From: Trypanosoma brucei
Taxonomy: Eukaryota
DNA: 64,000 bases
Assembly (NCBI GenBank): GCA_000002445.1
Contig: CP000070.1
Coordinates: 1,344,001-1,408,000 of the forward strand
Direction of reading: 5' to 3'
The translations under genes and the position numbers were made by a program. The notes below the pieces were generated by a model. It was not told the origin of the DNA, did no database searches, and worked only from the letters and a program-made list of their open reading frames with translations. Positions 48,657 through 64,000 of the stretch are shown here, one piece after another. Every line of letters begins with the position of its first letter. The stretch's first letter is position 1.

Positions 48657-49238
48657 ATGGGTACCACCGCCAGTACGGATTCCGCAGACTCACCATTTTC
48701 TGTACGGAGCGTGGACTCTTCTGGCGGTGGAGGGTGGCGGCAGGAGGATCCCGAAAGGTTTCGAAAGTACATGCATCTCAAGTCACAAGCGGATCAGTGG
48801 CGCCAACGGCACGGCCACACGCCGGGGGCCACAAGGGGCGAACTCACGAAGAACCTCATCGAAGAAGTGTACGAAGAGGATTTCGAGTCCGTGGATCATG
48901 TGCAGTCAATGCGGTTGCCACCCATGGTGCTGAAGGAGATGAAAGATGCCGTGGCGAATGAGGCGGAGAGGCGCTGTGCGGAGACTGAAAAGGTCATGGC
49001 GCGTTGCCTACAGGATAAAATGTGGACTTCGTGGAAGTGCCAGAAGGAGAGGGATGCACTTTATCAGTGTGTGGCAGATAGGAAAGAAGACAATGAACTC
49101 CTAATGGCGTACCGTTGGAAGTATAATTTGGGCACTTTCCATGGGGAACTGATTGGGCGCAACAATATGATGCGGCGCATATGGAAGGAGCATTTCCCTG
49201 ACCGTGATTTACCACACCCATGGGTAAAGGACGCTTAG
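48657..49238 (+). CDS. Twin Cx9C (CHCH-domain) protein with an N-myristoylation motif (MGTTAS); candidate NDUFB7/B18-like or Mic19-like intermembrane-space protein
   Basis: 193 aa. N-terminus MGTTASTD (Gly2, Ser6). CAETEKVMARC-x10-CQKERDALYQC is C-x9-C / 10-aa linker / C-x9-C. The second helix resembles NDUFB7 (CKQERHDWDYC). The overall MG...CHCH layout also matches CHCHD3/Mic19. Confidence 0.6.
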   Translation: MGTTASTDSADSPFSVRSVDSSGGGGWRQEDPERFRKYMHLKSQADQWRQRHGHTPGATRGELTKNLIEEVYEEDFESVDHVQSMRLPPMVLKEMKDAVANEAERRCAETEKVMARCLQDKMWTSWKCQKERDALYQCVADRKEDNELLMAYRWKYNLGTFHGELIGRNNMMRRIWKEHFPDRDLPHPWVKDA

Positions 49239-49861
49239 TAAAGACTTCGGTTCTTCAAGGTTGCCGACAACTGTTTGGTTAAACCCTTGTGCGTGTTTGC
49301 GAGGGAGGAAGACCAATGGGACTAACACTTGGCACACGACAAACTGGTTACTGGTGGGGCCCTTCTTTTGTGCGTACGGTTATGCGTCGTGTTTTGCTGT
49401 TAATGGTCGTATCGATATATTGTTTTAGTGTGGTTCTTCGGCCTTGTGTGATCGTTAGTCTCTACTTGTAGTTTAGGGGAGGCTGTCAAAAGAATAAAAT
49501 TACCTCTCACTTCTTAATGATACCCATATATATATATATACACTAATTTGTTTGCGTTTGTGAGTCACCAGTTCCTCTGTTGCTTAGGGTACTGTTCTTT
49601 TTCCTCCCTTCCCCTTTATCACATATTCGCACTTTTGTCTTTACTGCCGGATTCTTCGCTCTTTTGGGCTATTTGATCGATTTTGATGCCAGATGCGTGT
49701 TCGTGTTCTGTTTTTCGATTGTTAACAGCATTGAGGAGCGGAAAGTAACCAAGTTCACCTGTATAGGTGACGAGCACAAAAGGGGTTCGAGGTGGGGCGT
49801 AAAATCAAGTGATCCCGAGTAGGTTTTACTGTTGGTGTGCCTGCGTAACTTGCAGGTACCA

Positions 49862-50446
49862 ATGATTCAGATTATTGCGCCGAGGGGCCCCCTGCAGGAA
49901 ATGCTGCTGTTGGAATTGCAGGGCAAAGTTGTCATACCTCCCAAGTTACTGGAGGAGGAGCGGGAGAGGCAGAGAATTCCCAACAGCAGTGAAGAGGAAG
50001 TGAAGGCATGCTCTCAAGTTACTGGTGGGAAGAGGCTAAGGGAAGACGGTGAATGTGGCGTTAATGTTGATACCAATCAGGTGGTGGAGGTGCCGTTGGG
50101 CTGCGTAGTGTGGGACTCGCGCAATGAGACGCGCTGTTCGCTTCAAATTGGGACGGTTGAAGTCAGTGGCAGTTATGGGAAGAGACGAGAGCCCCTTCTT
50201 GTGTTGAAGCGCTGTGTTGTAGGGGACAAAACTGCTGATGCGGAAGGTGCGGTGGCATGTGAATACTCAGAATCGAGTGGTTCTCAGTGCTGTTTGCTAC
50301 AGGAATGGCTGCAAGAGCATCCCGAGGAACTCACATTGGATGCCACTGTGAGGGGCGCAACAGTCCCCAGAAAAGTGTACGAGCTGGTTGGTGTTGTGGA
50401 GCGTTACATTCACTTGAACTCAAAGCCCCTCCGTAGGTTCGTGTGA
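49862..50446 (+). CDS. Small protein (194 aa) resembling Ctf8 (chromosome transmission fidelity 8, Ctf18-RFC subunit)
   Basis: First ATG at 49862 (the ORF track start at 49832 is TTG). [21 protein letters not shown] parallels the human CHTF8 N-terminus [32 protein letters not shown]...[15 protein letters not shown] parallels LGDLHYTT...[39 protein letters not shown] parallels YLVTALIKDKILFKTRPKP. The human sequence is recalled from memory. Confidence 0.5.
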   Translation: [194 protein letters not shown]

Positions 50447-51553
50447 GTTTTTCTTCAAACGTGCAAAAAAAAAATGTGACAGCGCGCCCTCTTCCACTCA
50501 CAGGAGGCGGGAATTACGTTCCATTTTGTATTCTCCGTTCGGCGATGCTTCGGTCGTATTTGTTGAGTCCTGCATAGAGTGGGGAAGGGAGATGCAACAG
50601 GGAACAAAGGGCATGTGTGAAACCGTGTTTGTCTTACCCCTCGCTTCCGCTAATTCAAGTGTGCTAGTTGCCCGAAAGATTGGCAGAAACTTTCCAGCCA
50701 TTGTTAGCATTTGATAACCTTTCCGTCAGAAAAAAAAAAGACATTTCTTTTTGACGGTTGGTTGCCGAAGAAAAGTGTGAACCAAGTCTGGCCACGTTGT
50801 GGGACGGGGTTCTGCCGCATTCTTCTTTACGTACATCAGCAGGTTATATATGCCTTGGGCCCGAATGGAAAGCATACCAACAACCCAAATACCTTCCATT
50901 TGTGGATGTGCAGGTGCGTGGAAGGGAGCGAGGGTGTAATAACATTGTGGAAGGTTTGTTCGAGCACTCGTTCTTCACCTCTGCCAGTTTTTCCTTCCAC
51001 AGTTACATACCATTTGCTTCTTTCTCCTCCTTCCTCATTATTACTGTCACTGTCACTGCTACCACGGTAACGTTATTTACCTTGTTTTCAATTGCTTGTT
51101 TAAGCACTCACGCACGGAAGAAGGCCCAAACCGTCAGTGTGCGTGTGTGGTCTAAGTTCTACAAAAGTGCCGGTAGTGAGGGGTAGGTAAAACATATTTT
51201 TTTTTTTTTGGGGGGGGGGAGTAGCAGCCGAGCACCGGGTGTGTTGGAAGTGTAGGGACAGTGTGGCTAGTAGGCAAGTAGTAAGTTAGACATAGAATAA
51301 AAAGGGGTAAAACAAAGTGGAACACTAGCGCCATACACATTGTGTTGGGGAAAGTAGGACAAGGCTGGAGAAGCGAGACGCGAGTGGTGGGAACTATTAG
51401 GTTAGTGAGTGACTTTAGGAGTGTCTTCCGGGGAGAGAATACCTGGAAGCGTAGGGTCGATATAAAGAAGTTTAAATCCCCTTAGTTCGGCTAGTGAAGA
51501 GTAGGGAAAGTAATTTGAGGAGTCAGGGAAGCTTAGTGGAGGGGACTTGCTGC

Positions 51554-54500
51554 ATGCGACCGACATCGTACTTGGCACATGCAGCGCCGTCTACTACTTC
51601 CTCCTCTGCTGCTGCGGTTGCAACTGCGTTGGGCAAAACCAAAACACGACTTAGTCCCCAACAGTCGTCCTTCACTTCGCTGACGCCGTCACACCTAAGA
51701 CATGGTGGACCACAGGCAGCGGAGCAGCTCATGCGGTTGGGCAGAGTGTTTGTGCCAGTTACATATTTGCCCGGTTCGTCTGGTTATCAAACCGCTCAAA
51801 CCCCTGGAGTTTCGCCTACACTACGCCGCAGCCGAAGGTACGAGCCTTACGGTTCTCTGCTACAGATGTATATGGAGCGCGGTTTCACTGACCTGGATGC
51901 CCTATTGTTCCACCCGGAGGCACCTTCTCCGATGGAGCTGTTGTTAAGCGTCCTGCGACATCGCACGGCGTGCCTGCAACTCACACAGAAGGCACTTACA
52001 GCGACTATCAGTCGGCCACGTCACACATCTTCTGCGGGAGCGGCCTCATATACCCTACAAACAGTTTACCACATTCTGAAGAACCACTGTCCATATCTGT
52101 ATGACACCGCCAGTGTTAGGGTATTGCTCTGCCAGGCGTTACTGTGCGAAAGGTTATTTAGTGATGCGATTGAGTTGCTACAGGGGATGCCCGATTCGTG
52201 GATTACGCCTGGGTTGTGGCAGGTCGTGATGGAAGCTGCAGCTGATGGTAAAGTCCCGCATTCACCCCTTCTGTGGAAACTTCTAACGTTGTCACCTGCA
52301 AAAACCCCAGGTGAAGGTCGTGTTGTTAGGACCGGTCAGCGGGTACCTGAGCAACTTCGAAGGGGAATGTCAGCTCGTGCAGCCGAAGTGGTGTCGAGAT
52401 CATTTGTAAACAGAGGAGAGAGCATGGATGAGGCAGCAAAGGCACATGGGGTGCACCAAAACAGCGACACAGTAACCTTCTCATCTTTTGAGGTGCGTCC
52501 GTTGTCGATCGTACAAATAACGCGTGGGGGTAATCAACTGGAATGGTGCCATCTCAGTACCTCAGAAGTTGGTTACGCTGAACAACACTACCGAGCTCTT
52601 CGTAACCTTCGAGGATGGGGTCACGGCGTGCTACGACTGGGAAGGGGTGACCACCTGATGGAAGGCGTTGTTTATGGTCTTGATGCCTTTCTTGCCTCCC
52701 GGCTTATGTTGCGCGCTAATGTGTCTTTCTTTGGCCAAGCGTCCCCGTTGATAGCCCTGCATATTCTTAGGCGATACATACGTACCTGTCACGCCCTGCG
52801 GAAAACTCCCGCACGCTCATCAGTGGTGAAGGGGACGGGTAGTGACGGGACCAGTGAATTAGGCACAAACAGCGACTGGCTGAAGTATCATCAGCCCTCG
52901 TCTACTAGTGGATCTCCAGGTGTGAGCACGAGTGATACACAAGCGTCTGATATTGAGGACTTCATTCACCCTTCACCATTTTTACTGTTCTTCAAAGTCG
53001 TCCGTGAAACCCGTGATGTACTTCCCGGGGGCGGTGGGACCCTTGCATCAGCCGGGCATTCTGGGACCTCGGGTGGAGTACCTACAGCTGGGCTGCCGAT
53101 GATACATTGGGAACTGGTGTGGCGATACTTCCAAACTCTCAACCGTGAGTGCCCCAACTGGCATACCATCATCCCAGAGAAGGCTGGTGACTTGAGTCAG
53201 TATGTTATTGACGTCCTTTGTCGTGGAGCTGATCCGTGGATGACGCTTAATGTTGCGCGTGCCGTTTCTTCACGCCATATTGTTGACGGTTTGGACATGT
53301 CGCTGTGGCTTCTCCACCGACTTGATCCGTCGCACCACATGGAAGAAGCACGCGATGTAACGCGGAAGGTGTTCCGCTGGCTCTTGACTGATGTCGGCGT
53401 GCACTTGCTGCCGCAGTTGCACCACAATCTTATCCCCGCTGCGAGGGTGTTGGTGCGCTTAGGGTTACAGGATGAGCTACGGCAACTATATAATGGCGTG
53501 CTAGATAACGTTTATTTGTTTGCCGAGGATTTCCGCGCAGAGTTTCTACACGTGATGATGGATTTGGTTTGCCCTTCGTGCAGCTCTATTCTATCTGCGC
53601 AGGACGTCTATGCGGAGCGTGTCTGTTCCATCTGTCTTACGATCATACCTGCAAAAGATGCGGGGTCATTGCCTAGCTTTCAGCTTTCGAGCGAACATAT
53701 CTCCCGTTTACGAGAGAAGCGCAAGGTTGTGCGACTTAGTGAGCGAAAGAGGTTGCATGAGAGCATCTGCTGTTGGTCAAAGCGAGGCGAGAATAGTCGT
53801 GAAACAGCTGCAGGAGCAACCAACGTTGGGAAGCATGCGGCGTCACCGGTCTTTCCTCCACTGGATGCTAGCAGCGTGTTTAAAAAGGAAATACTCTCCG
53901 ACACGGCTCCTCTACTTCCCGGGGTACCCGTGGCGGCGCGAAATGTGTTACTTCTTCCAGGAGGAGGTGGGGCAGACGGCGCGGGCAGTTGTGTGTCAGA
54001 AGGAGGTGGTCCCTCTGCCTCGTTTGATGTTTATGCAGCCATGGAAGAGTCATCGCACCGTTTGCAGCTACAAGAGGCAGCCCGTCGTTACGCACTGGCT
54101 CAGCGCGGTGTTGTGTTACCTGCGCGCCATTCTGCTGCCTTTCCATCCCCCGTTCTATCAACATCTTCCGTGTCGACTTCATCGGCGCATTTTTCTCCAG
54201 AGAAACAACGGCAGGGTTTCATGATACCCTCAATGTGTGTCGACGGGCCCTGGACTTGTGTATGGTGCCACGAACAAAACACGGGGTGGGGTTCCCGCAC
54301 ACAATGCGGAGCCTGTGGTGCCGAAACAGGACCCAGCGCTCTGTGGCGGCATTTTGCATACGCAACATCGACAGGGGATATTATGGAAGAAGTACGCGCT
54401 CGTGTGGCTAACTCCGCGGAACGTCCTGTAGACGCAGTGGTGGCGGGTTACCTGTTGATGGTGTACCGTCGTACGTTTCTGCTGAGGGCTACACCGCACG

Positions 54501-57500
54501 ATGCGGAGCGAATAGAACAGCTGATTCAGCGGCTCTGCCAACTACATGAGAGAGTGCTGGCAGGTTACACTTACATGCGCTTCGTTCCTGCCCGTGCACG
54601 CAGCAAGGGAAGTACCCTGTTTGCGCTTGCGCATCTCTTTGGTTGTACCGATGCAGCCTATGCGGGATTGACCACACAACAATTAAGGCGCGATGAGGAC
54701 ACGTTCTTTCAAACCATATTCACACCCGCAACCTGCAAGGTTTGTTTTGGGCAGCATGCGTGGAAGGCTTGCCCGATTATAACGCGGGATTTCTCTACAA
54801 CGAAGCGCCAATCCATTACAATGTCTCCGAAAGAAAAGCAGGAAGCAGTGCTGCAGCAACTTAGGCAGGCAGTGGAGGCTGCGGTGCAACATGGGGCGGA
54901 GAGCAGCCGTCTCGTCGTCGGTGCATACACGGCTTTTGTGAAATCACCCTACCGCGAGCTTTTTTCGGAGACACACAGCCGGGACGTGAATCGCCTGTCC
55001 ATGCTGTTGAGTCGGTACCAACAGTTCCGTCGTGCAGCCTTCGTCCTCTGCCACATTCCGTTACACCTTCGCGACGATGGGGCGTATATGGCTATGGTTC
55101 CATATTTTAACGTTCCTGTGGAGGACGCGCGGGAGTTATTGAGGAAACGGAGTCCCTTGGGTGTTGCGGATGGGACACATCCCAACTTTGTTCAGGTTGC
55201 TGTAACGTGCTGCATGTGTCTTGACGAGCGTCATGCTTCGTTCGAATGCCCGAGACTACTGAAGTGGATTGGAGAAATTGAGGAGCTGAGTGCATCGCAA
55301 AAAAACGGATCGGCAACTTCAGGAGCCCTTGTCGATGTCGTGGCCGCACAGGAGCTGTCCAAGCGATTGCGGGCGCAAGTAGACGGGTGGACCTCTGCGG
55401 GTCCTGAGAGACTACATGCATTTTACCGTTTCCTCCTCCAACGTATAGACGACTTCCAGAAGGACCCGTACGACACATTGCAAACCGACGGTGACGAGCA
55501 TGGTCATCGCCAAGTTGACTCTTGTGTAGTGGGTTCACCACTGAACATGTTGCAACTGCGGAGGCTCGACATGGACGACCCTATTGTCTATGCCATTAAT
55601 AAAGCTATCAGTAAGCTCGCGCTTGCTAAACAGGAAAAGAGTGCTTATCGGTTATATGCGAGGTCTCCCGTGGTTTTCGTGTCCAGTGGGGTAACCTCCA
55701 CAATGCTTCGAATGGCTGGCTACTCTGAAAAAGGTATCCGTACACTAAGTCACAATCACGTGGACGGTAGTGGAAGCTCACAAACATCACTATCTTCATC
55801 TTTGTCTGCGTCAGATGAATCATCAACATTAGGTGTTTCTACCGAAGGTGCACGTTCGGCGGCTGTGCCGATGCGAAATTGTTGCCTTTTGTGCTTTGAC
55901 AGCGAGCACACGTACTTCGACTGCCCAGAATTAATTGCACAACCGACTACTGCAGCTAAACTTGAATATGTAGTTGTGCACGTCGGTGGCATCCGAAGCG
56001 TGTTGGATGGCGTTCGGGCTGCCGCAGCGTACGTTTATCATACATACAACCTGGGACAGCTCACGAGTGATTTGCTTCGTGCACACCCCTCGTTAGTTCG
56101 TTCGCTTCTTCGGCTTGTCCGACGTTGCTTTGCTTGTGGTCTTGTTGGCTCCGGCGTCCGCATCCTGCGGCGTCTCCCTGTGGAAATGGTTCCACCCATA
56201 TCGCCCTATACGGACCTTTGGCGTGCCGCCGGTTTGGGAGAGGAGGTTGTCATCAGTCGACGAGCGCAGTTGCAGGCCCTGTTTGCTGCAGAAGGCTTGG
56301 AGCCGCGCATTGAAACTCCACCCGCTCGCCAGACGTACTCCAACAGGTTTGTTTCCGCTTTGAGTCATGTGCTTCACGATGATCTCTGTCGGCACTGCTA
56401 CCAGCACGGTCACTCACTTGCCACCTGTAGCGTATTCCATGCAGAAGTGAGTTTCGGACGGGATTACGTAGCGGCTTATCGTATGAGTATGATGTCCGAG
56501 CAGCTAGACGACGACTGGCGCGACGCCTACCTTCTGAAACTTGTTGACTTTTTCCTCATGCATAAGGTTCTTATGCCGTACCATATTGTTGGGGTCACGA
56601 ATGCGCTGAACGCGATCGCGGCCATGTGGAGCTTCCGTGGTGAGCCTGGCATCGCGATACGGCATCTACTGAACATTCCACCCGCGTACCGCAGACGACA
56701 GGCGTTCGCGTACATATTACAAGCAGTGGGCGTACCAGTAGACGAAGCCAAGCGCGTTCTCGCTAATGTTTACTTTTCTCCAAGTGAGTTGTCATCCTCG
56801 AATAAACCAAGTGGTAGCTCAGCTTCTGCCTCTGCCTCTGCCTCTGCTGGTTCCGGTTCCGGTTCTGGTGCTGAAAGCGGCAGTGCCGTGGCACAACACC
56901 TTTTGATGCCTAAACCTGCCATTCGTGATGTGGCGATGACGGCTGTATTTAATCAGTTTCCCGACGCACTTGCTGCGTTGGAAGGGAGTGAAGGACGCAT
57001 GGAGGCAATACGCCGCCGAAACGCAACACAGAAGATAACGAAGGGTTCCAAGGCTGAAGGGGGGAATATGAAGACTACCTCGGTGGGAGGCGCAGCGCGT
57101 ATGGCAGAATCCTCGTTGGGGGAAGAACCATCAGTACCGAGTGTGTCTCTCTCACGCCGCCCGGTGCAAAGTGGCGATATCACGACAGTTCGTGAAAACT
57201 TTGACCCGGTCCTCACAGAATTGGAGCTAGCAGTGGGTATGAAACTTGGAAGTCGACACGTACTCTTTACAAGCGCAGTTGACATTCTCGCTGCTGTCGT
57301 TGCCCCGAAGGAAACTGAGGGTGGCAGCGGGAAGGTACAGCAGCCGGCGGTGACAACCACAGTCGTTGTCCCACCACAGGCAGCTTCCCCTCCACCTTCA
57401 GAAAATCCCGCGTCGAAGTTGTCGCCAGAATCCACGGTGGCCATCCCACGGAGCGATGCCTGTGGTCATCCTCACACACGGGAGGAACCTGAAATTGTTA

Positions 57501-57760
57501 CCGTCTTTAGTGGCGAAACGGCAGGGGGAGGTGGTTCAGGAAGGGGAAGCCACCAGCGCTGGGGTGTTGGATCTGATGGTCTTAAACCCTCCTCTTCACC
57601 GTCTAACAGCCCCGGAGGTGATCACGGAAAGTACAGCTCGAGTCAACACTTCCAAACGCAGCAACACTACACACAAAAGGGCCGTTATCACGAGAGGCAG
57701 CGGCGCCGTCAGCGAGAGCGGGATGTGGGTAACAACGGCAATCACGCCCGAAAACGGTGA
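51554..57760 (+). CDS. Giant hypothetical protein (~2068 aa) with four periodically spaced CCHC zinc knuckles and one RanBP2-type zinc finger; probable nucleic-acid-binding protein
   Basis: First ATG at 51554 (the ORF track start at 51494 is GTG). Knuckles: TCKVCFGQHAWKACP, CCMCLDERHASFECP, CCLLCFDSEHTYFDCP, CRHCYQHGHSLATC (C-x2-C-x3/4-H-x4-C), roughly 150-200 aa apart. RanBP2-like: WTCVWCHEQNTGWGSRTQCGACG. The helical N-terminal third is possibly repeat-like. There is an SASASASAGSGSGSG linker and a basic/His-rich C-terminus. Confidence 0.65.
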   Translation: MRPTSYLAHAAPSTTSSSAAAVATALGKTKTRLSPQQSSFTSLTPSHLRHGGPQAAEQLMRLGRVFVPVTYLPGSSGYQTAQTPGVSPTLRRSRRYEPYGSLLQMYMERGFTDLDALLFHPEAPSPMELLLSVLRHRTACLQLTQKALTATISRPRHTSSAGAASYTLQTVYHILKNHCPYLYDTASVRVLLCQALLCERLFSDAIELLQGMPDSWITPGLWQVVMEAAADGKVPHSPLLWKLLTLSPAKTPGEGRVVRTGQRVPEQLRRGMSARAAEVVSRSFVNRGESMDEAAKAHGVHQNSDTVTFSSFEVRPLSIVQITRGGNQLEWCHLSTSEVGYAEQHYRALRNLRGWGHGVLRLGRGDHLMEGVVYGLDAFLASRLMLRANVSFFGQASPLIALHILRRYIRTCHALRKTPARSSVVKGTGSDGTSELGTNSDWLKYHQPSSTSGSPGVSTSDTQASDIEDFIHPSPFLLFFKVVRETRDVLPGGGGTLASAGHSGTSGGVPTAGLPMIHWELVWRYFQTLNRECPNWHTIIPEKAGDLSQYVIDVLCRGADPWMTLNVARAVSSRHIVDGLDMSLWLLHRLDPSHHMEEARDVTRKVFRWLLTDVGVHLLPQLHHNLIPAARVLVRLGLQDELRQLYNGVLDNVYLFAEDFRAEFLHVMMDLVCPSCSSILSAQDVYAERVCSICLTIIPAKDAGSLPSFQLSSEHISRLREKRKVVRLSERKRLHESICCWSKRGENSRETAAGATNVGKHAASPVFPPLDASSVFKKEILSDTAPLLPGVPVAARNVLLLPGGGGADGAGSCVSEGGGPSASFDVYAAMEESSHRLQLQEAARRYALAQRGVVLPARHSAAFPSPVLSTSSVSTSSAHFSPEKQRQGFMIPSMCVDGPWTCVWCHEQNTGWGSRTQCGACGAETGPSALWRHFAYATSTGDIMEEVRARVANSAERPVDAVVAGYLLMVYRRTFLLRATPHDAERIEQLIQRLCQLHERVLAGYTYMRFVPARARSKGSTLFALAHLFGCTDAAYAGLTTQQLRRDEDTFFQTIFTPATCKVCFGQHAWKACPIITRDFSTTKRQSITMSPKEKQEAVLQQLRQAVEAAVQHGAESSRLVVGAYTAFVKSPYRELFSETHSRDVNRLSMLLSRYQQFRRAAFVLCHIPLHLRDDGAYMAMVPYFNVPVEDARELLRKRSPLGVADGTHPNFVQVAVTCCMCLDERHASFECPRLLKWIGEIEELSASQKNGSATSGALVDVVAAQELSKRLRAQVDGWTSAGPERLHAFYRFLLQRIDDFQKDPYDTLQTDGDEHGHRQVDSCVVGSPLNMLQLRRLDMDDPIVYAINKAISKLALAKQEKSAYRLYARSPVVFVSSGVTSTMLRMAGYSEKGIRTLSHNHVDGSGSSQTSLSSSLSASDESSTLGVSTEGARSAAVPMRNCCLLCFDSEHTYFDCPELIAQPTTAAKLEYVVVHVGGIRSVLDGVRAAAAYVYHTYNLGQLTSDLLRAHPSLVRSLLRLVRRCFACGLVGSGVRILRRLPVEMVPPISPYTDLWRAAGLGEEVVISRRAQLQALFAAEGLEPRIETPPARQTYSNRFVSALSHVLHDDLCRHCYQHGHSLATCSVFHAEVSFGRDYVAAYRMSMMSEQLDDDWRDAYLLKLVDFFLMHKVLMPYHIVGVTNALNAIAAMWSFRGEPGIAIRHLLNIPPAYRRRQAFAYILQAVGVPVDEAKRVLANVYFSPSELSSSNKPSGSSASASASASAGSGSGSGAESGSAVAQHLLMPKPAIRDVAMTAVFNQFPDALAALEGSEGRMEAIRRRNATQKITKGSKAEGGNMKTTSVGGAARMAESSLGEEPSVPSVSLSRRPVQSGDITTVRENFDPVLTELELAVGMKLGSRHVLFTSAVDILAAVVAPKETEGGSGKVQQPAVTTTVVVPPQAASPPPSENPASKLSPESTVAIPRSDACGHPHTREEPEIVTVFSGETAGGGGSGRGSHQRWGVGSDGLKPSSSPSNSPGGDHGKYSSSQHFQTQQHYTQKGRYHERQRRRQRERDVGNNGNHARKR

Positions 57761-58789
57761 GATTCTGTTGCATTGGTGTTGTACTCTGATAAATATATAC
57801 GTCCCTATTCTGTATGATTGTCAAGACACCTCCGATCTGCCGTGGTTTCCTGTGCAATCATATGTGCGGACGCGTACACTCGTACACACAAGAGGTTTAA
57901 GAATGTAACTTTATATTTTCCGACATTCTTTATCGTCACCTTTATAATTTGCATTTGAGTTTCGAAAATGTTGCACCTGTGGATCGGGGCATGCGTTGTT
58001 TTTGTTTGTGTTTATTTCCTTTTCATCGCTCGCGTGTGTGCCGTTGCAAGGCGAATGGGCAAGCGTGAGGATGCGAAATGCTGGTGGAGATGTAGTGGAC
58101 ATCCTGGAAGTGTTGTTTTAGTTATTTCCTTGTTTCGCTCACTTACAACTTCTTCTGCCCCTTTTTGTACCGCGCTTTGCTGCTTTCATCGATTTGATGA
58201 GCGCCGTTGCCACCTTTTCGCTTTTTTCCCCTCTGGGAAAGGTGGGGAGATTTTTGTAGCAGGACCACGTGACTGCGGGGCGGTCATGAGTGTATTTTCG
58301 TGGGGATTGCGCTCTATTCTAAAATGCATTAGCACGACTGGTCAAGTCTGTAACAAACTATTTTTTATTCCTATTTTTTATTTTCTCTTCTTTCTTTTGT
58401 TCATCTGTATCGTCGTTGCAACTTTCTTTCCCTTTCAACACTCCTTTGAAAAAAGAAAAAGCGCACTGTCTGTTGTATATCACTTTGCTTCTCGCGACTG
58501 TTACTTGCAGGTTCGCATTAACTGGTGTGAAGGTAGTTTAGCCCTTGGTGTTATTTTGGGTAAAGAAAGGTGATCAAGGAAGTGAAAAACGAAAACGAAA
58601 GGGGAAAACGTGAGAGTGGGTGGGGAGGAATCGTCGCAACAAACTGTCACCAAAATACAGATTCACCAAAAGTTTCGATTATTGTACGTAAATTGAAGCA
58701 AATTAGCCCACTCACTTTCCTCCCCTCCTTCCTTCGTGAGTGTGGTGAATTTGAAGGTGTGTGCCGAGGGGGGAAAAAAGGAGAGTGCT

Positions 58790-61030
58790 ATGTCTCACAG
58801 CCAGAACAGCACCTCTCAAGGCAGCACTCTTCCTGGTGATTCCCTTTGTGGTGAAGAGGGTTTTGCTCATTATGGCCATGACGACGGTGCAACGGTCCCG
58901 CTAGGAGCGGGCGGTGGCTGCAGCGTTAGTGATTCATCTTCAGCGCACCCTCCGCATCGGGGTATTTATCTCAAACCGAATGTTTTCATGATTAACGGCA
59001 CTGCGGGGCATCTAATGGATTTGTATTACTTGTCCAACTCAAACGCCACCCACGGGTTTGGTGACTCGACATGCGTAAGGACGGCATCCCCACCGTTTTG
59101 GTGGGGTTATAAGCCTCCAAACTCTCCGACAGTTTTGGTGTCCTTCAAGTACTCCATCTGGACAGCCGTAGAAAAACAAATCTACGATATCGTAGCCTCC
59201 GAAGAATTCACAGATGCTGAAGTTGTCGCTAATGTTGAAGCTTTAGGTTGCTCCCATGGGGAGAAGTGTTGGCTCCAGAAAGCCGCTGGGGCTTTAGCAA
59301 CGAACCTTCGGGAGAATCGCCTTTTGGCTGGTCAGTTCGCTGCCGAGTTCCTTTCTCCCGATGTGTATTTGGGCAGGGGTGACATTACATGTTTCCTTAA
59401 TGGCGGTGGTGAGTGGGAAGGGCGCAACATTCCGGTGCTGCAACCGGGTATGGAAACGGCGTTGCGTGCAATGCGGCCGGGCGATGAGTTTGGTTTTATT
59501 ATTCGTGGACGCCGGTTGGGGTTTCAAGGAGGCTCATACCCCTCTATGTATAGCACTGGTGGGGCCGGCACTTACAACTATAATCGGTGCACGTCCTTTC
59601 CGCAGTGTTACTTCATTCACATTAGCCTTAACAAAGCCGTCCCGCGAGAAACGACGAGTATGCTCCCTCTCCAGCGGTATGTTTTAGATGTTCCATTTTG
59701 CACGGATAATGTTGGAAGAGCCTGCTGCACAGCGCCACAATTAGAAGGTTGCAGTGGTACCGTGTTTTCTGCAGGCCTTGAGAGTGGGACATTTTCACAT
59801 TTCTACAGTTTTTTTCACGGGTCACTTAGTTTTTTGGGTCCCCGCGGTATTGTTTCCAAAGAGGGCGGCCAAGGCGTTAGCCGAAAATGGGATTCGGCAG
59901 AATATCAAGCTGCGCGCCGAGCCTTTTGCATGGCAATGACGACGGCGTTGGAGGGTTGTCTGGAGGGCCGTTTAGTGGGTGGGATGTGCGGTGGTGGTGT
60001 GGAGGAGCGACCAACTCATGAGGATGCGTTGTCATTTCTTCATGAGTGCTTCTTCACCAAACCACGTGGCGATGCAACAGTGTCTTTCAGTGTCGCGCGT
60101 ATAGGACCGTTAGCAGATCGGGAGTTATCCTCAGAACGGTTGGACAACGTGAAGCTTGGGACTTTGGTCACTCCGCTTTGGTTAGACATGTCGCTGCAAA
60201 GTATGGCGGCGGGTGAGCGCGACTTAATCAACTCATGGTTTGAATCAGACAACGATCCACTGTTTCACCTCTATTTTGTGGGTTGCCACCGTGCGGCCAT
60301 GGTCGTGCAATTTTGGGAGTCTGAAAGGGAACGGCGATCGGGTTGTATAGAGGCTCTTGCGGAGGACCAGTTGCAGCAAAGCTCAGTAGGTGCTAACAAT
60401 GCTCCACCAAAGCCAATTCTTGATGGGAATGTCACAACGAAACATGATCTCAGCTGCCGCATTACCCTTCATAGTTTCACCAACAGGTATACCGTAGATG
60501 ATTTCTTTTTTGTGAACCCCCTCTCGTCCCTGCAGACGGTGAGGGGCTTACTTGACGAAATCTCCGGGTTGTGCCCACTAGTCAAATCCTGCGAGGGGCT
60601 AGAATCTCTGGCACACGCGGTAGATAGTGAGATCAGTAGTTGTAGCAGCGACAGCAGTGAAAGGCAGGTTGAAGGGGCTGTGCCACTAGAATTCAACCAA
60701 CCGACTCCAACACAATCGGCACCGAAGGTTATAAATATCCATCCAGCGCCGTTTGGTAGCGTCCCTCCCAATCGTGATGCCTTTCGTAGTGTTGTTAAGG
60801 CTATACACAAAGTATGTTTTACAATACTGCTGCTGACATTTTATGTCGATGTGGATAATATGCTTGCGAAGGGTGTTGCACCATCGCTGCTGAAGGAACG
60901 TGAAAATGTGCTCCCCGACTGTTTTAAACTTCTAGGTTGCTTGTATGCAAAGTTGAAGAGGAAGTTCAACATCCACTTCTGTGAGGATGCCTTCTGTGCG
61001 GCTTCCTTGCTGGTGCAGAATGATGACTGA
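58790..61030 (+). CDS. Hypothetical protein (~746 aa), no recognised domain
   Basis: First ATG at 58790 inside ORF 58736..61030 (GTG). 2.2-kb uninterrupted ORF on the transcribed strand. Unrecognised. Confidence 0.55.
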   Translation: MSHSQNSTSQGSTLPGDSLCGEEGFAHYGHDDGATVPLGAGGGCSVSDSSSAHPPHRGIYLKPNVFMINGTAGHLMDLYYLSNSNATHGFGDSTCVRTASPPFWWGYKPPNSPTVLVSFKYSIWTAVEKQIYDIVASEEFTDAEVVANVEALGCSHGEKCWLQKAAGALATNLRENRLLAGQFAAEFLSPDVYLGRGDITCFLNGGGEWEGRNIPVLQPGMETALRAMRPGDEFGFIIRGRRLGFQGGSYPSMYSTGGAGTYNYNRCTSFPQCYFIHISLNKAVPRETTSMLPLQRYVLDVPFCTDNVGRACCTAPQLEGCSGTVFSAGLESGTFSHFYSFFHGSLSFLGPRGIVSKEGGQGVSRKWDSAEYQAARRAFCMAMTTALEGCLEGRLVGGMCGGGVEERPTHEDALSFLHECFFTKPRGDATVSFSVARIGPLADRELSSERLDNVKLGTLVTPLWLDMSLQSMAAGERDLINSWFESDNDPLFHLYFVGCHRAAMVVQFWESERERRSGCIEALAEDQLQQSSVGANNAPPKPILDGNVTTKHDLSCRITLHSFTNRYTVDDFFFVNPLSSLQTVRGLLDEISGLCPLVKSCEGLESLAHAVDSEISSCSSDSSERQVEGAVPLEFNQPTPTQSAPKVINIHPAPFGSVPPNRDAFRSVVKAIHKVCFTILLLTFYVDVDNMLAKGVAPSLLKERENVLPDCFKLLGCLYAKLKRKFNIHFCEDAFCAASLLVQNDD

Positions 61031-62630
61031 GAAGGACGGTTTTACTGCGGGAATCCTTGTGATTGCACACTAAATGATTGACTGTTGCCACAACCCGGAA
61101 ACTGATGTGTGAGTGGCGAGTGTTAGGGATGACTACACCAATCTGGAAGTGGTTCTTTTCCCTTTCTTTGGTTTTGTATTTGTGAGTGTGCTCGATTGCT
61201 GAGGCTTGGGTTAGGAGGAGGATTGTCCTTTGCCAGCTGAATTCTTCATTTTCTCCATTTATTTAGGTCTTCCTTATCCTCCCTTTAAAAAAGGAACATA
61301 ATTTATGTATCTCTTAACGCTTTTTCAGCGGCGGAATGGATGAAGTGCGGAGAATTCCGTGAATTTCTTTGGTTCCTTACCCCCACCCCTAATTCCTCGG
61401 AAACGGTGGTGCTGGGGTGCGTTTTTTCTCCCAATTCAAGTGCCTGTCATGGATGAGACGTGCTGTGTGAAAGTGCAAAACCAACGTAGATTGTGCATGC
61501 GTTTGTCTGCTCGTATAAATGCAAAGCAATTAGCTCGAAAGAGGAAGCTTATCTCTTTGTTGGCTTCGTTTAATAGCATGGCTCTTTGTGATGCAAACTA
61601 GTCTTGGTGAAAGGCTGTTTTTTCAAGGGCTTCTGGTAGCTGATAGAAAAAAGGACTTTTTTGCTCCCATTTGCTTCGCACTACAAATGCGTCAGGACCT
61701 CCCCAAGAAGTTACGGCCTGCGTGGGTGTACGCCTTGGGCTTACGCGCATGGTGCCAGTGCTCGAGTGGAGCGGGTGATTTTAACAGGGGAAGGGACAAG
61801 GAGGGAGTGATGACACACACGCACATGATTATGACATTGGCAAGACAACTATTTTCTTTTTCTTTTTGCCTTTATTTATTACTGCGTCGCGACACCTCTC
61901 TCTTTTCCCCGTGCCCCCCTTCCCTTCCAGGGTGATCTTTCCCTGATATTTCGCTATCGCATACGATTGAGTTGTGCTTCATATCTTTTTGTTTGTTATA
62001 ATGTCTACATTTGTGAGTGGTCATTGCCATTGTTTGTTCACTGTTCAGTTCATTTCCCCCCTTTTCTTCCGCGAGCTATTTATTCCTTTATCATTTTCAG
62101 TTCTTTTTGTTGTTATTGCGAGCTCCCCTCCCCACACTTTCTTTTTTTATTATCTGTTTCCGGAGCCCTGTGCTGCGCTGTACGTGCCAGTCCCATACGG
62201 GGTGGCGTCACCATGAAAGAGGCTCGTTGGATGGATTGCTTGCGCCGCGTCGGCGTTTACGCGCAGTTACGGTGAACGAAAAAGAGTGATACGAATAATG
62301 AAAAGGAATGAAGGAAGAACCACCAGGAGTGCAGTTTGTACAAGTGTTGAATTCGGGCCTTTTTTCTTTCCTTATCCTTTCCCTCTTTGGCACACATGAT
62401 AGGGGACCTACTGTACATAAATCTGTGTATATGTGTGCGCGTGAGAACTGCCAAGATGCAAAAAGATGGGTTTCGCAACCTTTTGCCATGTGCCACACAT
62501 GCTCTTCTCATCAAACCCCTTTTTCATTGCTTAAGGGAGTGTTGTGTGAACAATATACAGACAGCTGTAGATTGATTACATTTTTAATACGGCTGAGCAG
62601 CGGCAGGAGACGTAATATACAAACTCCACC

Positions 62631-63990
62631 ATGAATGTCGATGGTACTGTCCAACAAGCCCGTGTGGGTGTTGTTGTACACCGAGCGGAGTCTCTTGTTG
62701 GACTGAGCGCGAGTGGGACGTCGAATCCCTTTGTTTCCGTTTCGGTTGGCGCGACAGTCCTCAGTACTCCTGTTGTGCAGAATAGCACAAACCCCACATT
62801 CGAGGCTGCTTTTAACTTCCCCGAATGCCCTATTCCAACTATTCTGACACTTCGTGTATTTCACAAGGAGGCCGGTGGGGTAGAGAGTCCACTCGGCAGT
62901 GCAACGCTTACGCTGTTTTCGCCGTCCGCGATGACTCGCCGACAAGTACAACTGGGACATGGTGGTAGCGTTGTTTTGTCTCAGAAGGCCCGTGACGGAT
63001 GCGGATCGCTAGACATTTCTTATGAGGTAGTGGCGCCAACGTCCTATAAAGCAACTGCATCGGAACAACGAAAATCTGTTGACGACGATCTACCTTCGTT
63101 TTTGAGGGATGACGCGGGGGCGGAAACCCTAACTTCAGCATTTACGGCATTCTCCCAACCTCCACCACCACCAGCTGCTGCAATACCGAAACCACCAGAA
63201 TTTGGAGCTGTTCCTCCACCACCACCAGCTGCTGCAATACCGAAACCACCAGAATTTGGAGCTGTTCCACCACCACCACCAGCTGCTTCAATACCGAAAC
63301 CACCAGAATTTGGAGCTGTTCCACCACCACCACCAGCTGCTTCAATACCGAAACCACCAGAATTTGGAGCTGTTCCACCACCACCACCAGCTGCTGCAAT
63401 ACCGAAGCCACCAGAATTTGGAGCTGTACCACCACCACCACCAGTTGCTGCAATACCGAAGCCACCAGAATTTGGAGCTGTTCCACCACCACCACCAGCT
63501 GCTTCAATACCGAAACCACCAGAATTTGGAGCTGTTCCACCACCACCACCAGCTGCTGCAATACCGAAGCCACCAGAATTTGGAGCTGTTCCACCACCAC
63601 CACCACCAACTGCTGCAATACCGAAGCCACCAGAATTTGGAACTGTTGCCCCACCCGTCCCCGTCGTGGTACCCTCCACCTCTGGACAATCATTTATTGC
63701 GAGTGCGGCTTTTGCAAATGAGGACTCTTCTGAGACGTCACCACCACCTTCGTCTTCAACTATGCCGGACACTGGGGGCACCTCTCACTCATCTCACCGC
63801 GGTTATTCATCTGCATCGTCCCCCAACAGCACCAATCATACGCAGCTGCAGAGGCAGCAAATGGCATCGGCATCGTCAACGGGAGCGACATCGACATCTC
63901 TTCATACTTCATCGAATCATTCAAGCACCGCACCCCCGCCACCACTTCAGGCACAAAAGGAACCGCCACTTCATGGAGTAGATAAGACTT
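62631..63990 (+). CDS. C2-domain protein with an array of ~9 tandem 18-aa polyproline repeats (FH1-like), 3'-partial: continues beyond the window
   Basis: ATG at 62631. This ORF is not in the supplied track because it lacks a stop within the window. The N-terminus translates to a C2 domain: MNVDGTVQQARVGVVVHRAESLVGLSASGTSNPFVSVSVGATVLSTPVVQNSTNPTFEAAFNFPEC.... From ~63159 the frame encodes (PPPPPAAAIPKPPEFGAV)n, then a Ser/Thr-rich region, and stays open to nt 63990. Confidence 0.6.
63159..63647 (+). repeat. Near-perfect 54-nt tandem repeat (~9 copies) encoding the PPPPPAA(A/S)IPKPPEFGAV motif
   Basis: Direct reading: the unit cctccaccaccaccagctgct(g/t)caataccgaa(a/g)ccaccagaatttggagctgtt repeats with only occasional third-position or Ala/Ser changes. 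It creates spurious ORFs on both strands (63044..63781 -, 63142..63693 -, 63202..63981 +). Confidence 0.9.
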
Positions 63991-64000
63991 CGCGGGCTCC

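What the first reader, a model, noticed from the sequence alone, without database searches (positions are those of the whole stretch)
51554..57760. Giant protein with four evenly spaced retroviral-type CCHC zinc knuckles plus a RanBP2-type zinc finger
The four knuckles (C-x2-C-x3/4-H-x4-C) are each followed by Pro. They sit at ~150-200 aa intervals and are embedded in similar helical contexts, e.g. CCMCLDERHASFECPRL versus CCLLCFDSEHTYFDCPEL. This implies an internally duplicated helical-module + knuckle architecture spread across ~1500 aa, preceded by a RanBP2-like finger (W-x-C-x2-C-x3-N-x8-C-x2-C). The arrangement suggests a modular single-stranded nucleic-acid-binding scaffold. It is not a retroelement Gag, because no protease or RT lies nearby and the knuckles are far apart.
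Basis: partly seen in the sequence, partly recalled or inferred. Interest (0 to 1): 0.55.

Follow-up and report, generated by a model that had tools for sequence, protein, structure and literature searches.

The report
Mitochondrial helical-repeat giant with zinc knuckles
This gene (Trypanosoma brucei Tb927.7.5280) encodes an uncharacterised 220 kDa mitochondrial protein, found only in kinetoplastids, that is built from five or six copies of one helical module separated by strictly conserved zinc-binding knuckles, an arrangement with no described family, structure or function.

Summary
The ORF at 51554-57760 is identical to T. brucei Tb927.7.5280 (Q57ZG1, "hypothetical protein, conserved"). 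It has four CCHC knuckles where 0.001 are expected by chance, and a W-C4 finger. All zinc ligands are conserved in about 20 divergent kinetoplastid orthologues. Corrections: the fourth knuckle is followed by Ser, not Pro. A further C4 site lies at aa 673-694. There are five helical modules, not four, plus a possible degenerate sixth near the N-terminus. Deep-branching orthologues carry a fifth knuckle that T. brucei lacks.

Published import proteomics place the protein in the mitochondrion. Nucleic-acid binding is untested. The knuckle regions are neutral to acidic and lack canonical knuckle and RanBP2 residues, so they may be structural staples. My best guess is an RNA-associated mitochondrial solenoid scaffold. 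It is a new variant of known kinds and of moderate interest.

The parts
51554..57760 (+). Coding sequence of Tb927.7.5280 (2068 aa plus stop), a nuclear gene for a mitochondrial protein
   Evidence: ORF. Exact identity to XP_846151.1 / Q57ZG1. Gene ID and 220.21 kDa from the supplement of PMC5436138.
51554..51721 (+). N-terminal 56 aa with no acidic residue, rich in Ser/Thr/Ala with Arg/Lys: a putative mitochondrial presequence
   Evidence: Composition. TargetP positive and MitoFates negative in the PMC5436138 reference table. The cleavage site is not determined.
52094..52303 (+). Possible degenerate sixth copy of the helical module (aa ~181-250), with no knuckle
   Evidence: hhalign of N1 against D3 gives E = 0.0011 (100 columns), against D2 0.0028 and against D1 0.03, all in the same register. 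There is also weak similarity to a recalled PPR consensus, E = 0.0026.
53570..53635 (+).
   Evidence: The four Cys are conserved in at least 90% of orthologues. Only weak sub-threshold Pfam zinc-ribbon or finger hits.
54251..54316 (+). RanBP2-like W-C4 finger (W900, C902, C905, N909, C918, C921)
   Evidence: The Trp and four Cys are at least 90% conserved. There is no Pfam zf-RanBP hit, and the AF2 model shows two short beta bridges here.
54326..54733 (+). Helical module D0 (aa 925-1060)
   Evidence: hhalign D0-D1 E = 5e-7 over 94 columns. Leave-one-out HMM E = 0.0019 at aa 986-1037. All-alpha at pLDDT 84-90.
54734..54772 (+). Knuckle K1, C-x2-C-x3-H-x4-C followed by Pro
   Evidence: Ligands are invariant in 22 orthologues. 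The deepest-branching orthologues have the canonical x4 spacing.
54821..55207 (+). Helical module D1 (aa 1090-1218)
   Evidence: hhalign D1-D4 E = 1.4e-7 and D1-D0 E = 5e-7. Leave-one-out HMM E = 1.6e-7.
55208..55249 (+). Knuckle K2, C-x2-C-x4-H-x4-C followed by Pro (CCMCLDERHASFECP)
   Evidence: Ligands and the Pro are invariant. Pfam zf-CCHC_3 scores only E = 0.025, below threshold.
55349..55882 (+). Helical module D2 (aa 1266-1443), interrupted by two disordered insertions
   Evidence: hhalign D2-D3 E = 1e-5 and D2-D4 E = 7e-5. pLDDT is below 50 at local 418-448 and 513-537, which is aa 1307-1337 and 1402-1426.
55883..55924 (+). Knuckle K3, C-x2-C-x4-H-x4-C followed by Pro
   Evidence: Ligands are invariant. 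One clade carries a 12-28 aa insertion between Cys2 and His.
55949..56386 (+). Helical module D3 (aa 1466-1611)
   Evidence: hhalign D3-D2 E = 1e-5, D3-D4 E = 1.3e-4 and D3-D0 E = 1.2e-3. Not recovered by the leave-one-out HMMER test.
56387..56428 (+). Knuckle K4, C-x2-C-x4-H-x4-C followed by Ser (CRHCYQHGHSLATCS)
   Evidence: The Cys are at least 90% conserved. In the deepest lineages the spacing shifts to C-x2-C-x5-H-x3-C.
56450..56788 (+). Helical module D4 (aa 1633-1745), with no knuckle after it in T. brucei
   Evidence: hhalign D4-D1 E = 1.4e-7. Leave-one-out HMM E = 0.012. Orthologues P0031, P0034 and P0035 carry a fifth CCHC knuckle that aligns near aa 1816.
56891..57433 (+). C-terminal conserved segment (aa ~1780-1960, including LRExFDPIL..LE..vG.KLGSRH.LF), unrelated to the modules
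   Evidence: Conserved across orthologues. hhalign against the modules gives E = 0.26-0.66.

Best explanation
Shown or taken from published data:
- The gene is Tb927.7.5280.
- It is a nuclear-encoded, kinetoplastid-restricted protein of 220 kDa that is imported into the mitochondrion.
- Its C-terminal 1100 residues are an array made by internal duplication of one ancestral unit, a ~100-150 aa all-alpha TPR/PPR-like module followed by a CCHC zinc knuckle. The order is (C4 site) - (W-C4 finger) - D0-K1 - D1-K2 - D2-K3 - D3-K4 - D4 (K5 lost in trypanosomatids).

Inferred:
- The knuckles act mainly as zinc-stabilised caps or junctions that fix one helical module to the next.
- The helical modules provide the ligand-binding surface.
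- The most likely ligand is single-stranded mitochondrial RNA, or an RNP. This would make the protein a multivalent platform in kinetoplastid-specific mitochondrial gene expression (transcript processing, stability, editing or translation).
For: - Identity and gene ID.
- Mitochondrial location. In gradient-purified mitochondria the ATOM40-RNAi/control ratio is 0.18 (log2 -2.47, 30 peptides). It is 0.47 in whole cells and 0.43 in organelle fractions. The protein is in the earlier mitochondrial proteome set and is TargetP positive (PMC5436138). The N-terminus has no acidic residue for 56 aa.
- Distribution. An exhaustive HMMER search of 1.84 billion representatives gave only 29 hits. All those I inspected have the same architecture. 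The named ones are Trypanosoma, Lotmaria, Angomonas and the prokinetoplastid Apiculatamorpha.
- Zinc ligands are conserved throughout.
- Module homology.
- AF2 gives pLDDT 84.8 and pTM 0.72 for aa 890-1745. Knuckle residues score pLDDT ~80-95. Each knuckle sits directly between helices, and the residues after it are conserved and hydrophobic (CPIITRDF, CPRL..W, CPEL).
- The structural reading of the knuckles rests on their neutral or acidic regions and their non-canonical residues.
- From general knowledge of the field, not tested here: most helical-repeat proteins known in trypanosome mitochondria are RNA-associated (KRIPPs, KPAFs).
Against: - No experiment or interaction dataset links this protein to RNA. 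It is not flagged in the mitoribosome, editosome or MRB1 columns of the reference table. It matches no chain of any solved structure, including trypanosomal mitoribosomes, their assembly intermediates and editing complexes.
- PPR membership is not demonstrated. There are no Pfam PPR hits, and hhalign against a recalled PPR consensus is marginal for 2 of 7 segments.
- The net charge of the modules is only +1 to +5.
- TPR-like modules bind peptides at least as often as RNA.
- I could not inspect model coordinates, so 'knuckle packs at the junction' is inferred from sequence order, pLDDT and pTM, not from measured contacts.
Confidence: 0.4

Rival explanations
1. First reader's reading. The CCHC knuckles and the RanBP2-like finger are themselves the nucleic-acid-binding elements. 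Each contacts a few bases of single-stranded RNA or DNA, as in HIV NC, CNBP, UMSBP or ZRANB2, and the helical modules serve as spacers.
For: - C-x2-C-x4-H-x4-C spacing in K2-K4, and in K1 of the deepest orthologues.
- Strict ligand conservation.
- The family profile weakly matches HIV nucleocapsid knuckles in the PDB (E = 0.02-0.5).
- K2 weakly matches Pfam zf-CCHC_3 (E = 0.025).
- Both finger types have well-known single-stranded nucleic-acid binders (general knowledge).
Against: - No Pfam zf-CCHC or zf-RanBP hit was returned.
- The canonical Gly after Cys2 is replaced by Phe, Leu or Tyr. There is no conserved aromatic at Cys1+1.
- The regions around K3, K4, the finger and the C4 site are net zero or negative in 86-100% of orthologues. 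Classical nucleic-acid-binding knuckles are basic.
- The Trp inside the finger loop (W912) and the Asn are not conserved.
- CCHC knuckles can also mediate protein contacts (recalled from memory: Air2-Trf4).
Confidence: 0.25
2. A protein-protein scaffold with no direct nucleic-acid role. This would be a zinc-stapled TPR-like solenoid that assembles or chaperones a mitochondrial protein complex, for example in respiratory-chain, import or ribosome biogenesis.
For: - The zinc regions are acidic or neutral, and the modules are only weakly positive.
- No Pfam PPR signal.
Against: - It is absent from all solved trypanosomal mitochondrial complexes by sequence.
- The restriction to Kinetoplastea is more easily tied to their peculiar mitochondrial genome and RNA biology than to conserved protein machineries. 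This is inference only.
- hhalign against a recalled TPR consensus is not significant.
Confidence: 0.25
3. A kDNA factor that binds single-stranded G-rich mitochondrial DNA, such as minicircle or maxicircle origins, like a giant relative of UMSBP, and acts in kinetoplast replication or maintenance.
For: - Restricted to kinetoplastids and mitochondrial.
- Has CCHC knuckles, the motif class of UMSBP (general knowledge).
Against: - Not found in the held supplementary tables of a kDNA-replication depletion study. Those files may be incomplete.
- The main text of a kinetoplast-protein preprint does not mention the gene, and no supplement is held for it.
- The same residue and charge arguments apply as for direct binding by the knuckles.
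Confidence: 0.08
4. A retroelement-derived (Gag-like) or chance arrangement of Cys/His motifs.
For: Only the formal CCHC pattern supports this.
Against: - Four matches against 0.0012 expected, and 0 of 20,000 shuffles with more than one.
- Ligands are conserved across Kinetoplastea.
- No protease, RT or integrase is nearby, and the gene sits in an ordinary housekeeping unit.
- The knuckles are 158-225 aa apart.
Confidence: 0.01

Closest known systems
Pentatricopeptide-repeat (PPR) proteins of organelles (e.g. maize PPR10, plant mitoribosomal rPPRs, trypanosome KRIPPs and KPAFs)
   Same: - Organellar location.
- All-alpha helical-hairpin solenoid.
- Weak sequence echo of the PPR consensus in D2 and N1.
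   Different: - No Pfam PPR match in any of 22 orthologues.
- The repeat unit is a ~100-150 aa super-module rather than a 35 aa motif.
- Modules are separated by zinc knuckles and disordered linkers.
- Whole-chain TM-score to PPR10 is only 0.16-0.18.
Tandem CCHC zinc-knuckle proteins (HIV-1 nucleocapsid, CNBP, trypanosomatid UMSBP)
   Same: - C-x2-C-x4-H-x4-C ligand spacing and the short turn between His and the last Cys in the model.
- Marginal profile similarity to NC knuckles.
   Different: - Knuckles are 158-225 aa apart instead of a few residues.
- No Pfam zf-CCHC hit.
- Phe, Leu or Tyr replaces the canonical Gly after Cys2.
- Flanks are neutral or acidic rather than basic.
RanBP2-type (NZF/ZRANB2) zinc fingers, including plant organellar OZ1/OZ2
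   Same: W-x-C-x2-C ... C-x2-C with conserved Trp and four Cys, and two short beta hairpins in the model.
   Different: - The loop is N-x8-C (x7 in deep lineages) instead of N-x6-C.
- The Asn is His in several orthologues.
- The loop Trp and Arg used by ZRANB2 for GGU recognition (recalled from memory) are not conserved.
- No Pfam PF00641 hit.
TPR domains of co-chaperones (STI1/HOP, PP5, Sgt2)
   Different: There is no significant sequence similarity to a TPR consensus. The modules have 6-9 helices and carry a zinc knuckle. Those domains are cytosolic peptide binders.
PRORP (proteinaceous RNase P): PPR domain joined to a nuclease by a split CCHC-type zinc module
   Same: A precedent, recalled from memory and not tested here, for an organellar PPR-like solenoid in which a Cys/His zinc site serves as a structural connector.
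   Different: PRORP has one zinc module and a NYN nuclease. This protein has six zinc sites, no detectable catalytic domain and no sequence similarity to PRORP chains in the PDB.

Membership tests
CCHC zinc knuckle (Pfam zf-CCHC PF00098, 'retroviral type') | Ligand pattern C-x2-C-x4-H-x4-C | tested here: met
   K2, K3 and K4 fit exactly. K1 is C-x2-C-x3-H-x4-C in trypanosomatids but x4 in P0030, P0031, P0034 and P0035.
CCHC zinc knuckle (Pfam zf-CCHC PF00098, 'retroviral type') | Match to the family profile HMM at the curated threshold | tested here: not met
   No zf-CCHC hit for the full protein at E ≤ 10 or for isolated 38-aa knuckle peptides. The only related hit is zf-CCHC_3 for K2 at E = 0.025, 14.9 bits against a cut-off of 27.
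CCHC zinc knuckle (Pfam zf-CCHC PF00098, 'retroviral type') | Canonical Gly after Cys2, Gly-His, an aromatic at Cys1+1, and basic flanks (recalled consensus CX2CGX3HX4C) | tested here: not met
   The residue after Cys2 is Phe, Leu, Phe and Tyr in K1-K4. Only K4 has G-H. Cys1+1 is Lys, Cys, Leu and Arg. The K3 and K4 regions are net negative in 91-100% of orthologues.
CCHC zinc knuckle (Pfam zf-CCHC PF00098, 'retroviral type') | Zinc binding and single-stranded nucleic-acid binding | not testable with these tools
   Needs metal analysis and binding assays on recombinant fragments.
RanBP2-type zinc finger (Pfam PF00641, PROSITE-type pattern W-x-C-x(2,4)-C-x3-N-x6-C-x2-C) | Consensus spacing including N-x6-C | tested here: not met
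   T. brucei has N-x8-C and the deepest orthologues have x7. The Asn is replaced by His in P0019, P0022-P0024, P0026, P0027 and P0032. The consensus itself is recalled from memory.
RanBP2-type zinc finger (Pfam PF00641, PROSITE-type pattern W-x-C-x(2,4)-C-x3-N-x6-C-x2-C) | Match to the Pfam profile | tested here: not met
   No PF00641 hit for the 47-aa finger peptide at E ≤ 10. HMMER's filters may drop hits above ~0.1.
RanBP2-type zinc finger (Pfam PF00641, PROSITE-type pattern W-x-C-x(2,4)-C-x3-N-x6-C-x2-C) | Conserved Trp plus four Cys in two beta hairpins | tested here: met
   W900, C902, C905, C918 and C921 are at least 90% conserved. DSSP on the AF2 model shows two 2-residue strand/bridge segments at local residues 11-12 and 19-20.
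Pentatricopeptide repeat (PPR) proteins | Tandem ~35-aa motifs recognised by PPR profiles | tested here: not met
   No PPR family at E ≤ 10 for T. brucei or at E ≤ 0.1 for any of 22 orthologues. A designer PPR in the PDB scores only E = 0.1-0.16 with no passing stretch.
Pentatricopeptide repeat (PPR) proteins | Profile-profile similarity to the PPR consensus | tested here: inconclusive
   hhalign against 4x a PPR consensus recalled from memory gives D2 E = 0.0025 and N1 E = 0.0026. D0, D1, D3, D4 and N3 give 0.13-0.95. Shuffled controls give 0.19-0.94.
Pentatricopeptide repeat (PPR) proteins | PPR-type alpha-solenoid fold | tested here: inconclusive
Pentatricopeptide repeat (PPR) proteins | Organellar location | tested here: met
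   Met from published data, not computed here: ATOM40-dependent importome and the earlier mitochondrial proteome (PMC5436138).
Tetratricopeptide repeat (TPR) proteins | Match to TPR profiles or consensus | tested here: not met
   Pfam TPR_19 is found in only 2 of 22 orthologues, not in T. brucei. hhalign against a recalled CTPR consensus gives E = 0.2-0.97.
Retroelement Gag / nucleocapsid | Closely spaced knuckles in a Gag context with protease, RT or integrase nearby, in multicopy elements | tested here: not met
   Knuckles are 158-225 aa apart. The neighbours are housekeeping genes. The search returned only same-architecture homologues and no second family.

The most novel reading that the evidence does not exclude
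The 'TPR/PPR-like module + zinc knuckle' unit is a previously unrecognised, kinetoplastid-specific modular RNA-recognition repeat. In this reading each ~150-aa unit reads a short single-stranded element. The five- or six-unit array would select or hold specific mitochondrial transcripts (pre-edited mRNAs, gRNAs or their precursors) in the U-insertion/deletion editing and processing pathway. It would then be a new class of organellar helical-repeat RNA binder alongside PPR, OPR, HPR and mTERF.
Probability: 0.15. Interest if true: 0.8.

Novelty: new variant of a known kind. Interest (0 to 1): 0.5.

Why it matters
Kinetoplastid mitochondria run an exceptionally elaborate gene-expression system, with kDNA networks, guide RNAs and U-indel editing, and many of its factors remain unassigned.

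This is a large protein, readily detected in purified mitochondria and conserved from prokinetoplastids to Trypanosoma and trypanosomatid genera such as Lotmaria and Angomonas. It has no homologue detectable outside this group, no Pfam family, no structure and no mention in the main text of any paper I could search.

Its clean modular anatomy gives precise handles for experiments:
- six zinc sites to mutate;
- five modules to delete or swap;
- an ancestral fifth knuckle to restore.

If it binds RNA, it would define a new repeat class and a parasite-specific target. If the knuckles are structural, it would be an unusual example of zinc knuckles reused as inter-repeat staples in a solenoid.

Tried and rejected
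1. Pfam on the whole protein, on six isolated zinc-motif peptides and on 22 orthologues gave no family at threshold.
2. A PDB sequence search with the protein and with a 22-sequence profile gave nothing meaningful. There was a low-complexity-biased Nop58 hit, marginal HIV NC hits and marginal designer-PPR hits.
3. Two word-indexed homologue searches returned only Trypanosoma, because low-complexity words filled the candidate list. The exhaustive HMMER search was needed to reach other kinetoplastids.
4. Internal-repeat detection with a shallow 8-sequence Trypanosoma alignment found only K2~K3 (E = 1e-5 and 1e-3). On its own this would have wrongly refuted the helical repeat. The 22-sequence alignment reversed that result.
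5. The first AF2 run (aa 560-1745, 4 sequences) was unusable at pLDDT 43. The N-terminal 890 aa therefore remain unmodelled.
6. The Foldseek afdb50 library was unavailable.
7. Literature:
 - No main-text hit for Q57ZG1, Tb927.7.5250-5290 or Tb07.27E10.570.
 - The gene is absent from the held supplements of TrypTag, the Pam16/18 study and the T. brucei complex map.
 - The kinetoplast-protein preprint has no held supplements.
 - Two papers could not be retrieved: the DOI I tried for the sub-mitochondrial protein map and the PMC id I tried for the RIT-seq screen.
 - A search for a described PPR + CCHC architecture found none.
8. Cluster look-ups and a contig look-up did not reveal the organisms behind most metagenomic orthologues.
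9. The bacterial promoter/terminator scan and the tRNA scan of the surroundings were uninformative.
10. Retroelement and chance explanations were rejected.

Full report
**What is there.**
The window is Trypanosoma brucei chromosome 7. The ORF runs from 51494 (GTG) to 57760, and the ATG at 51554 gives 2068 aa. That product is residue-for-residue identical to XP_846151.1 / AAZ12592.1 / UniProt Q57ZG1, "hypothetical protein, conserved", of T. b. brucei TREU927. Orthologues start at the same MRP(S/T).

The supplement of Peikert et al. 2017 (PMC5436138) equates Q57ZG1 with Tb927.7.5280 (old name Tb07.27E10.570, 220.21 kDa). The gene order in the window fits that identification:
- FHA-domain kinase FHK, Tb927.7.5220.
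- Lanosterol synthase, Tb927.7.5230.
- Two ORFs with no Pfam match.
- Cmc1-like twin-Cx9C protein, Tb927.7.5260, at 48657-49238.
- A Ctf8-like ORF at 49832-50446.
- This gene.

**Check of the observation.**
- K1: aa 1061-1073, C-x2-C-x3-H-x4-C.
- K2: aa 1219-1232.
- K3: aa 1444-1457.
- K4: aa 1612-1625. K2-K4 are all C-x2-C-x4-H-x4-C.
- Finger: W900-x-C-x2-C-x3-N-x8-C-x2-C921.

With 41 Cys and 76 His in 2068 aa, 0.0012 such knuckle motifs are expected. None of 20,000 shuffles had more than one.

Two details need correcting. K4 is followed by Ser, not Pro. A further conserved C4 site (C673-x2-C-x14-C-x2-C694) was missed.

**Conservation.**
Word-indexed searches found only Trypanosoma species at 55-63% identity. 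An exhaustive HMMER search of 1.84 billion representatives, using a profile of aa 560-1745, found 29 proteins. The named ones are Trypanosoma, Lotmaria passim (Leishmaniinae), Angomonas deanei and the prokinetoplastid Apiculatamorpha spiralis. The rest are unnamed assemblies. All full-length hits show the same series of motifs.

In a 22-sequence alignment with identities to T. brucei as low as 26%:
- Every ligand of K1-K3 is invariant.
- Those of K4, the finger and the C4 site are at least 90% conserved.

Informative variants:
- K1 has the canonical x4 spacing in the deepest lineages.
- One clade has a 12-28 aa insertion inside K3 but keeps all four ligands.
- P0031, P0034 and P0035 carry a fifth knuckle downstream of the last helical module, aligned near T. 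brucei aa 1816.

**Is there a repeated helical module?**
With only eight Trypanosoma sequences, profile-profile comparison picked up just K2 against K3 (E = 1.7e-5 and 1e-3). The helical contexts were not significant.

With the 22-sequence alignment and the knuckles cut out, the five inter-knuckle segments match each other. The segments are D0 (925-1060), D1 (1090-1218), D2 (1266-1443), D3 (1466-1611) and D4 (1633-1745). All matches fall in one collinear register over 52-94 columns:

| Pair | E-value |
|---|---|
| D1-D4 | 1.4e-7 |
| D0-D1 | 5e-7 |
| D2-D3 | 1e-5 |
| D2-D4 | 7e-5 |
| D3-D4 | 1.3e-4 |
| D1-D2 | 7.5e-4 |
| D0-D3 | 1.3e-3 |
| D0-D4, D1-D3 | 4e-3 |
| D0-D2 | 0.05 |

These values come and were reproduced on an independent MAFFT alignment.

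The same segments compared with four other conserved regions of the protein (aa 301-470, 471-672, 695-899 and 1780-1960) give E = 0.08-0.88.

Plain HMMs built from four modules re-find the omitted one in the exact register for three of the five:
- D1: 1.6e-7.
- D0: 0.0019.
- D4: 0.012.
- D2: only 0.35.
- D3: not recovered.
Spurious hits elsewhere score no better than E ~6.

The shared core is about 55 residues, of the form h..h..hh..(10)..A..hL..hP..(7)..y..hh...G/Nh..e.a..hL. Examples are VNRLSMLLSRYQQFRRAAFVLCHIPLHLRDDGAYMAMVPYFNVPVEDAREL (D1) and LNAIAAMWSFRGEPGIAIRHLLNIPPAYRRRQAFAYILQAVGVPVDEAKRVL (D4).

A segment near the N-terminus (aa ~181-250) matches D3 (E = 0.0011), D2 (0.0028) and D1 (0.03) in the same register. 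It is probably a degenerate sixth copy.

The architecture is therefore [module + knuckle] five times. The last knuckle was lost in trypanosomatids. The array is preceded by a W-C4 finger and a C4 site whose flanking regions are not homologous to the modules.

**Structure.**
A first AF2 run with four sequences failed at pLDDT 43. With 22 sequences, aa 890-1745 was predicted at mean pLDDT 84.8 and pTM 0.72. Only the two insertions in D2 and the termini fall below 50.

Each module is all-alpha with 6-9 helices. The four-helix core has helix lengths of about 13-16, 8-11, 9-11 and 9 residues (18 in D3). K1 and K4 show the beta-bridge expected of a zinc knuckle. K1, K3 and K4 show a three-residue turn between His and the last Cys, and K2 has one spanning its last Cys.

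At sequence level:
- No PPR or TPR Pfam model matches T. brucei. TPR_19 matches 2 of 22 orthologues.
- A PPR consensus that I recalled from memory aligns marginally to D2 and N1 only (E ~0.0025). A TPR consensus does not align.

I could not read the coordinates. Zinc geometry, knuckle burial and module superposition are therefore unverified.

**Location.**
Data from PMC5436138:
- In gradient-purified mitochondria, the ATOM40-RNAi/control ratio is 0.18 (log2 -2.47, 30 peptides, 23% coverage).
- It is 0.47 in whole-cell extracts and 0.43 in organelle-enriched fractions.
- The protein is in the paper's mitochondrial reference set through the Panigrahi/Mach proteome.
- It is TargetP positive and MitoFates negative.
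- It is not flagged as mitoribosome, editosome or MRB1.

The first 56 residues contain no Asp or Glu. Mitochondrial import is thus experimentally supported. The sub-compartment is inferred.

**What the zinc modules probably do.**
Family membership holds by ligand pattern only:
- No zf-CCHC or zf-RanBP profile hit.
- The residue after Cys2 is Phe, Leu, Phe and Tyr instead of Gly.
- Cys1+1 is not aromatic.
- The finger has a loop 1-2 residues longer than the RanBP2 consensus. Its Asn and loop Trp vary.

The 23-37-residue regions around K3, K4, the finger and the C4 site are net zero or negative in 86-100% of orthologues. K1 is mildly positive and the modules are +1 to +5. This is unlike the basic knuckles of nucleocapsid, CNBP or UMSBP (comparison from general knowledge).

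What is conserved beside the ligands is hydrophobic or Pro (CPIITRDF, CPRL..W, CPEL). The model is confident across the junctions.

I therefore favour a structural role, as zinc staples capping each module. Ligand binding would be by the TPR/PPR-like surfaces. RNA is the most likely ligand because the protein is mitochondrial, kinetoplastid-restricted and PPR-like in fold (confidence 0.4).

The rivals are:
- Direct nucleic-acid binding by the knuckles (0.25).
- A pure protein scaffold (0.25).
- A kDNA-binding factor (0.08).
- A retroelement or chance origin (0.01).

**Novelty and literature.**
No paper in the searchable library mentions Q57ZG1, Tb927.7.5280 or its old name in the main text. 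The gene is absent from the held supplements of TrypTag, a kDNA-replication depletion study and the T. brucei complex map. No described PPR + CCHC architecture turned up.

The building blocks are known kinds: a TPR/PPR-like solenoid, a CCHC knuckle and a C4 finger. The repeated module-plus-knuckle unit and the family itself are undescribed. The unit is not found outside this orthologous group at HMMER sensitivity. I rate it a new variant of a known kind, with interest 0.5.

Noticed in passing
window 48657-49238 (+): A 193-aa ORF with twin Cx9C motifs (C107-C117, C128-C138). It corresponds to Tb927.7.5260, a 'Cmc1-like' protein listed as a candidate MIA-pathway (intermembrane-space) substrate in PMC5436138.
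   Followed up: partly
window 49832-50446 (+): A Ctf8-like ORF (Pfam PF09696, E = 4e-8), presumably Tb927.7.5270. It would be a subunit of the Ctf18 alternative RFC complex. The listed ORF starts at TTG, so the real start is probably an internal ATG.
   Followed up: no
window ~51196-51220 (+), about 330 nt upstream of the ATG: A run of about 13 T followed directly by about 11 G in the intergenic region. The T run could be the polypyrimidine tract for trans-splicing. The adjoining G run is unusual.
   Followed up: no
window 62001-64000: GC skew turns negative (-0.146) only here, after 62 kb of positive skew. Here the + strand ORF list ends and a minus-strand ORF appears (63044-63781). This may be the end of the polycistronic unit, that is a strand-switch region. 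No tRNA genes are in the window.
   Followed up: partly
window ~57190-57300 (aa ~1880-1915 of the protein): The conserved C-terminal motif LRExFDPIL..LE..vG.KLGSRH.LF gave a weak hit to the Nop domain of Nop58 (aPNL..lvG..vGARLi). The hit is E = 0.002, but 10 of 18.7 bits are compositional bias from the K/E-rich tails, so it is probably noise.
   Followed up: partly
orthologue P0018 (Angomonas deanei); window 54257-54271 in T. brucei: UniRef names the Angomonas orthologue 'Cytochrome c domain-containing protein'. The likely cause is the CxxCH string inside the RanBP2-like finger (CVWCH / CFWCH), so the name is probably an annotation artefact.
   Followed up: no
orthologues P0019, P0022, P0023, P0024, P0026 (knuckle 3; T. 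brucei aa 1444-1457, window 55883-55924): One clade has a 12-28 aa insertion between the second Cys and the His of knuckle 3 while keeping all four ligands. In the same clade the proteins are expanded to as much as 3530 aa by low-complexity inserts.
   Followed up: partly
orthologue P0007 (Trypanosoma vivax), aligned to T. brucei aa ~1710 onward: The sequence diverges completely after 'NIPP' and ends early. This is most likely a frameshift or assembly error in that genome rather than a real truncation.
   Followed up: no
window 45540-47732 (+) and 58736-61030 (+): The two flanking large ORFs (730 aa, very Ser-rich; 764 aa) have no Pfam match at E ≤ 0.001 and were not examined further.
   Followed up: no
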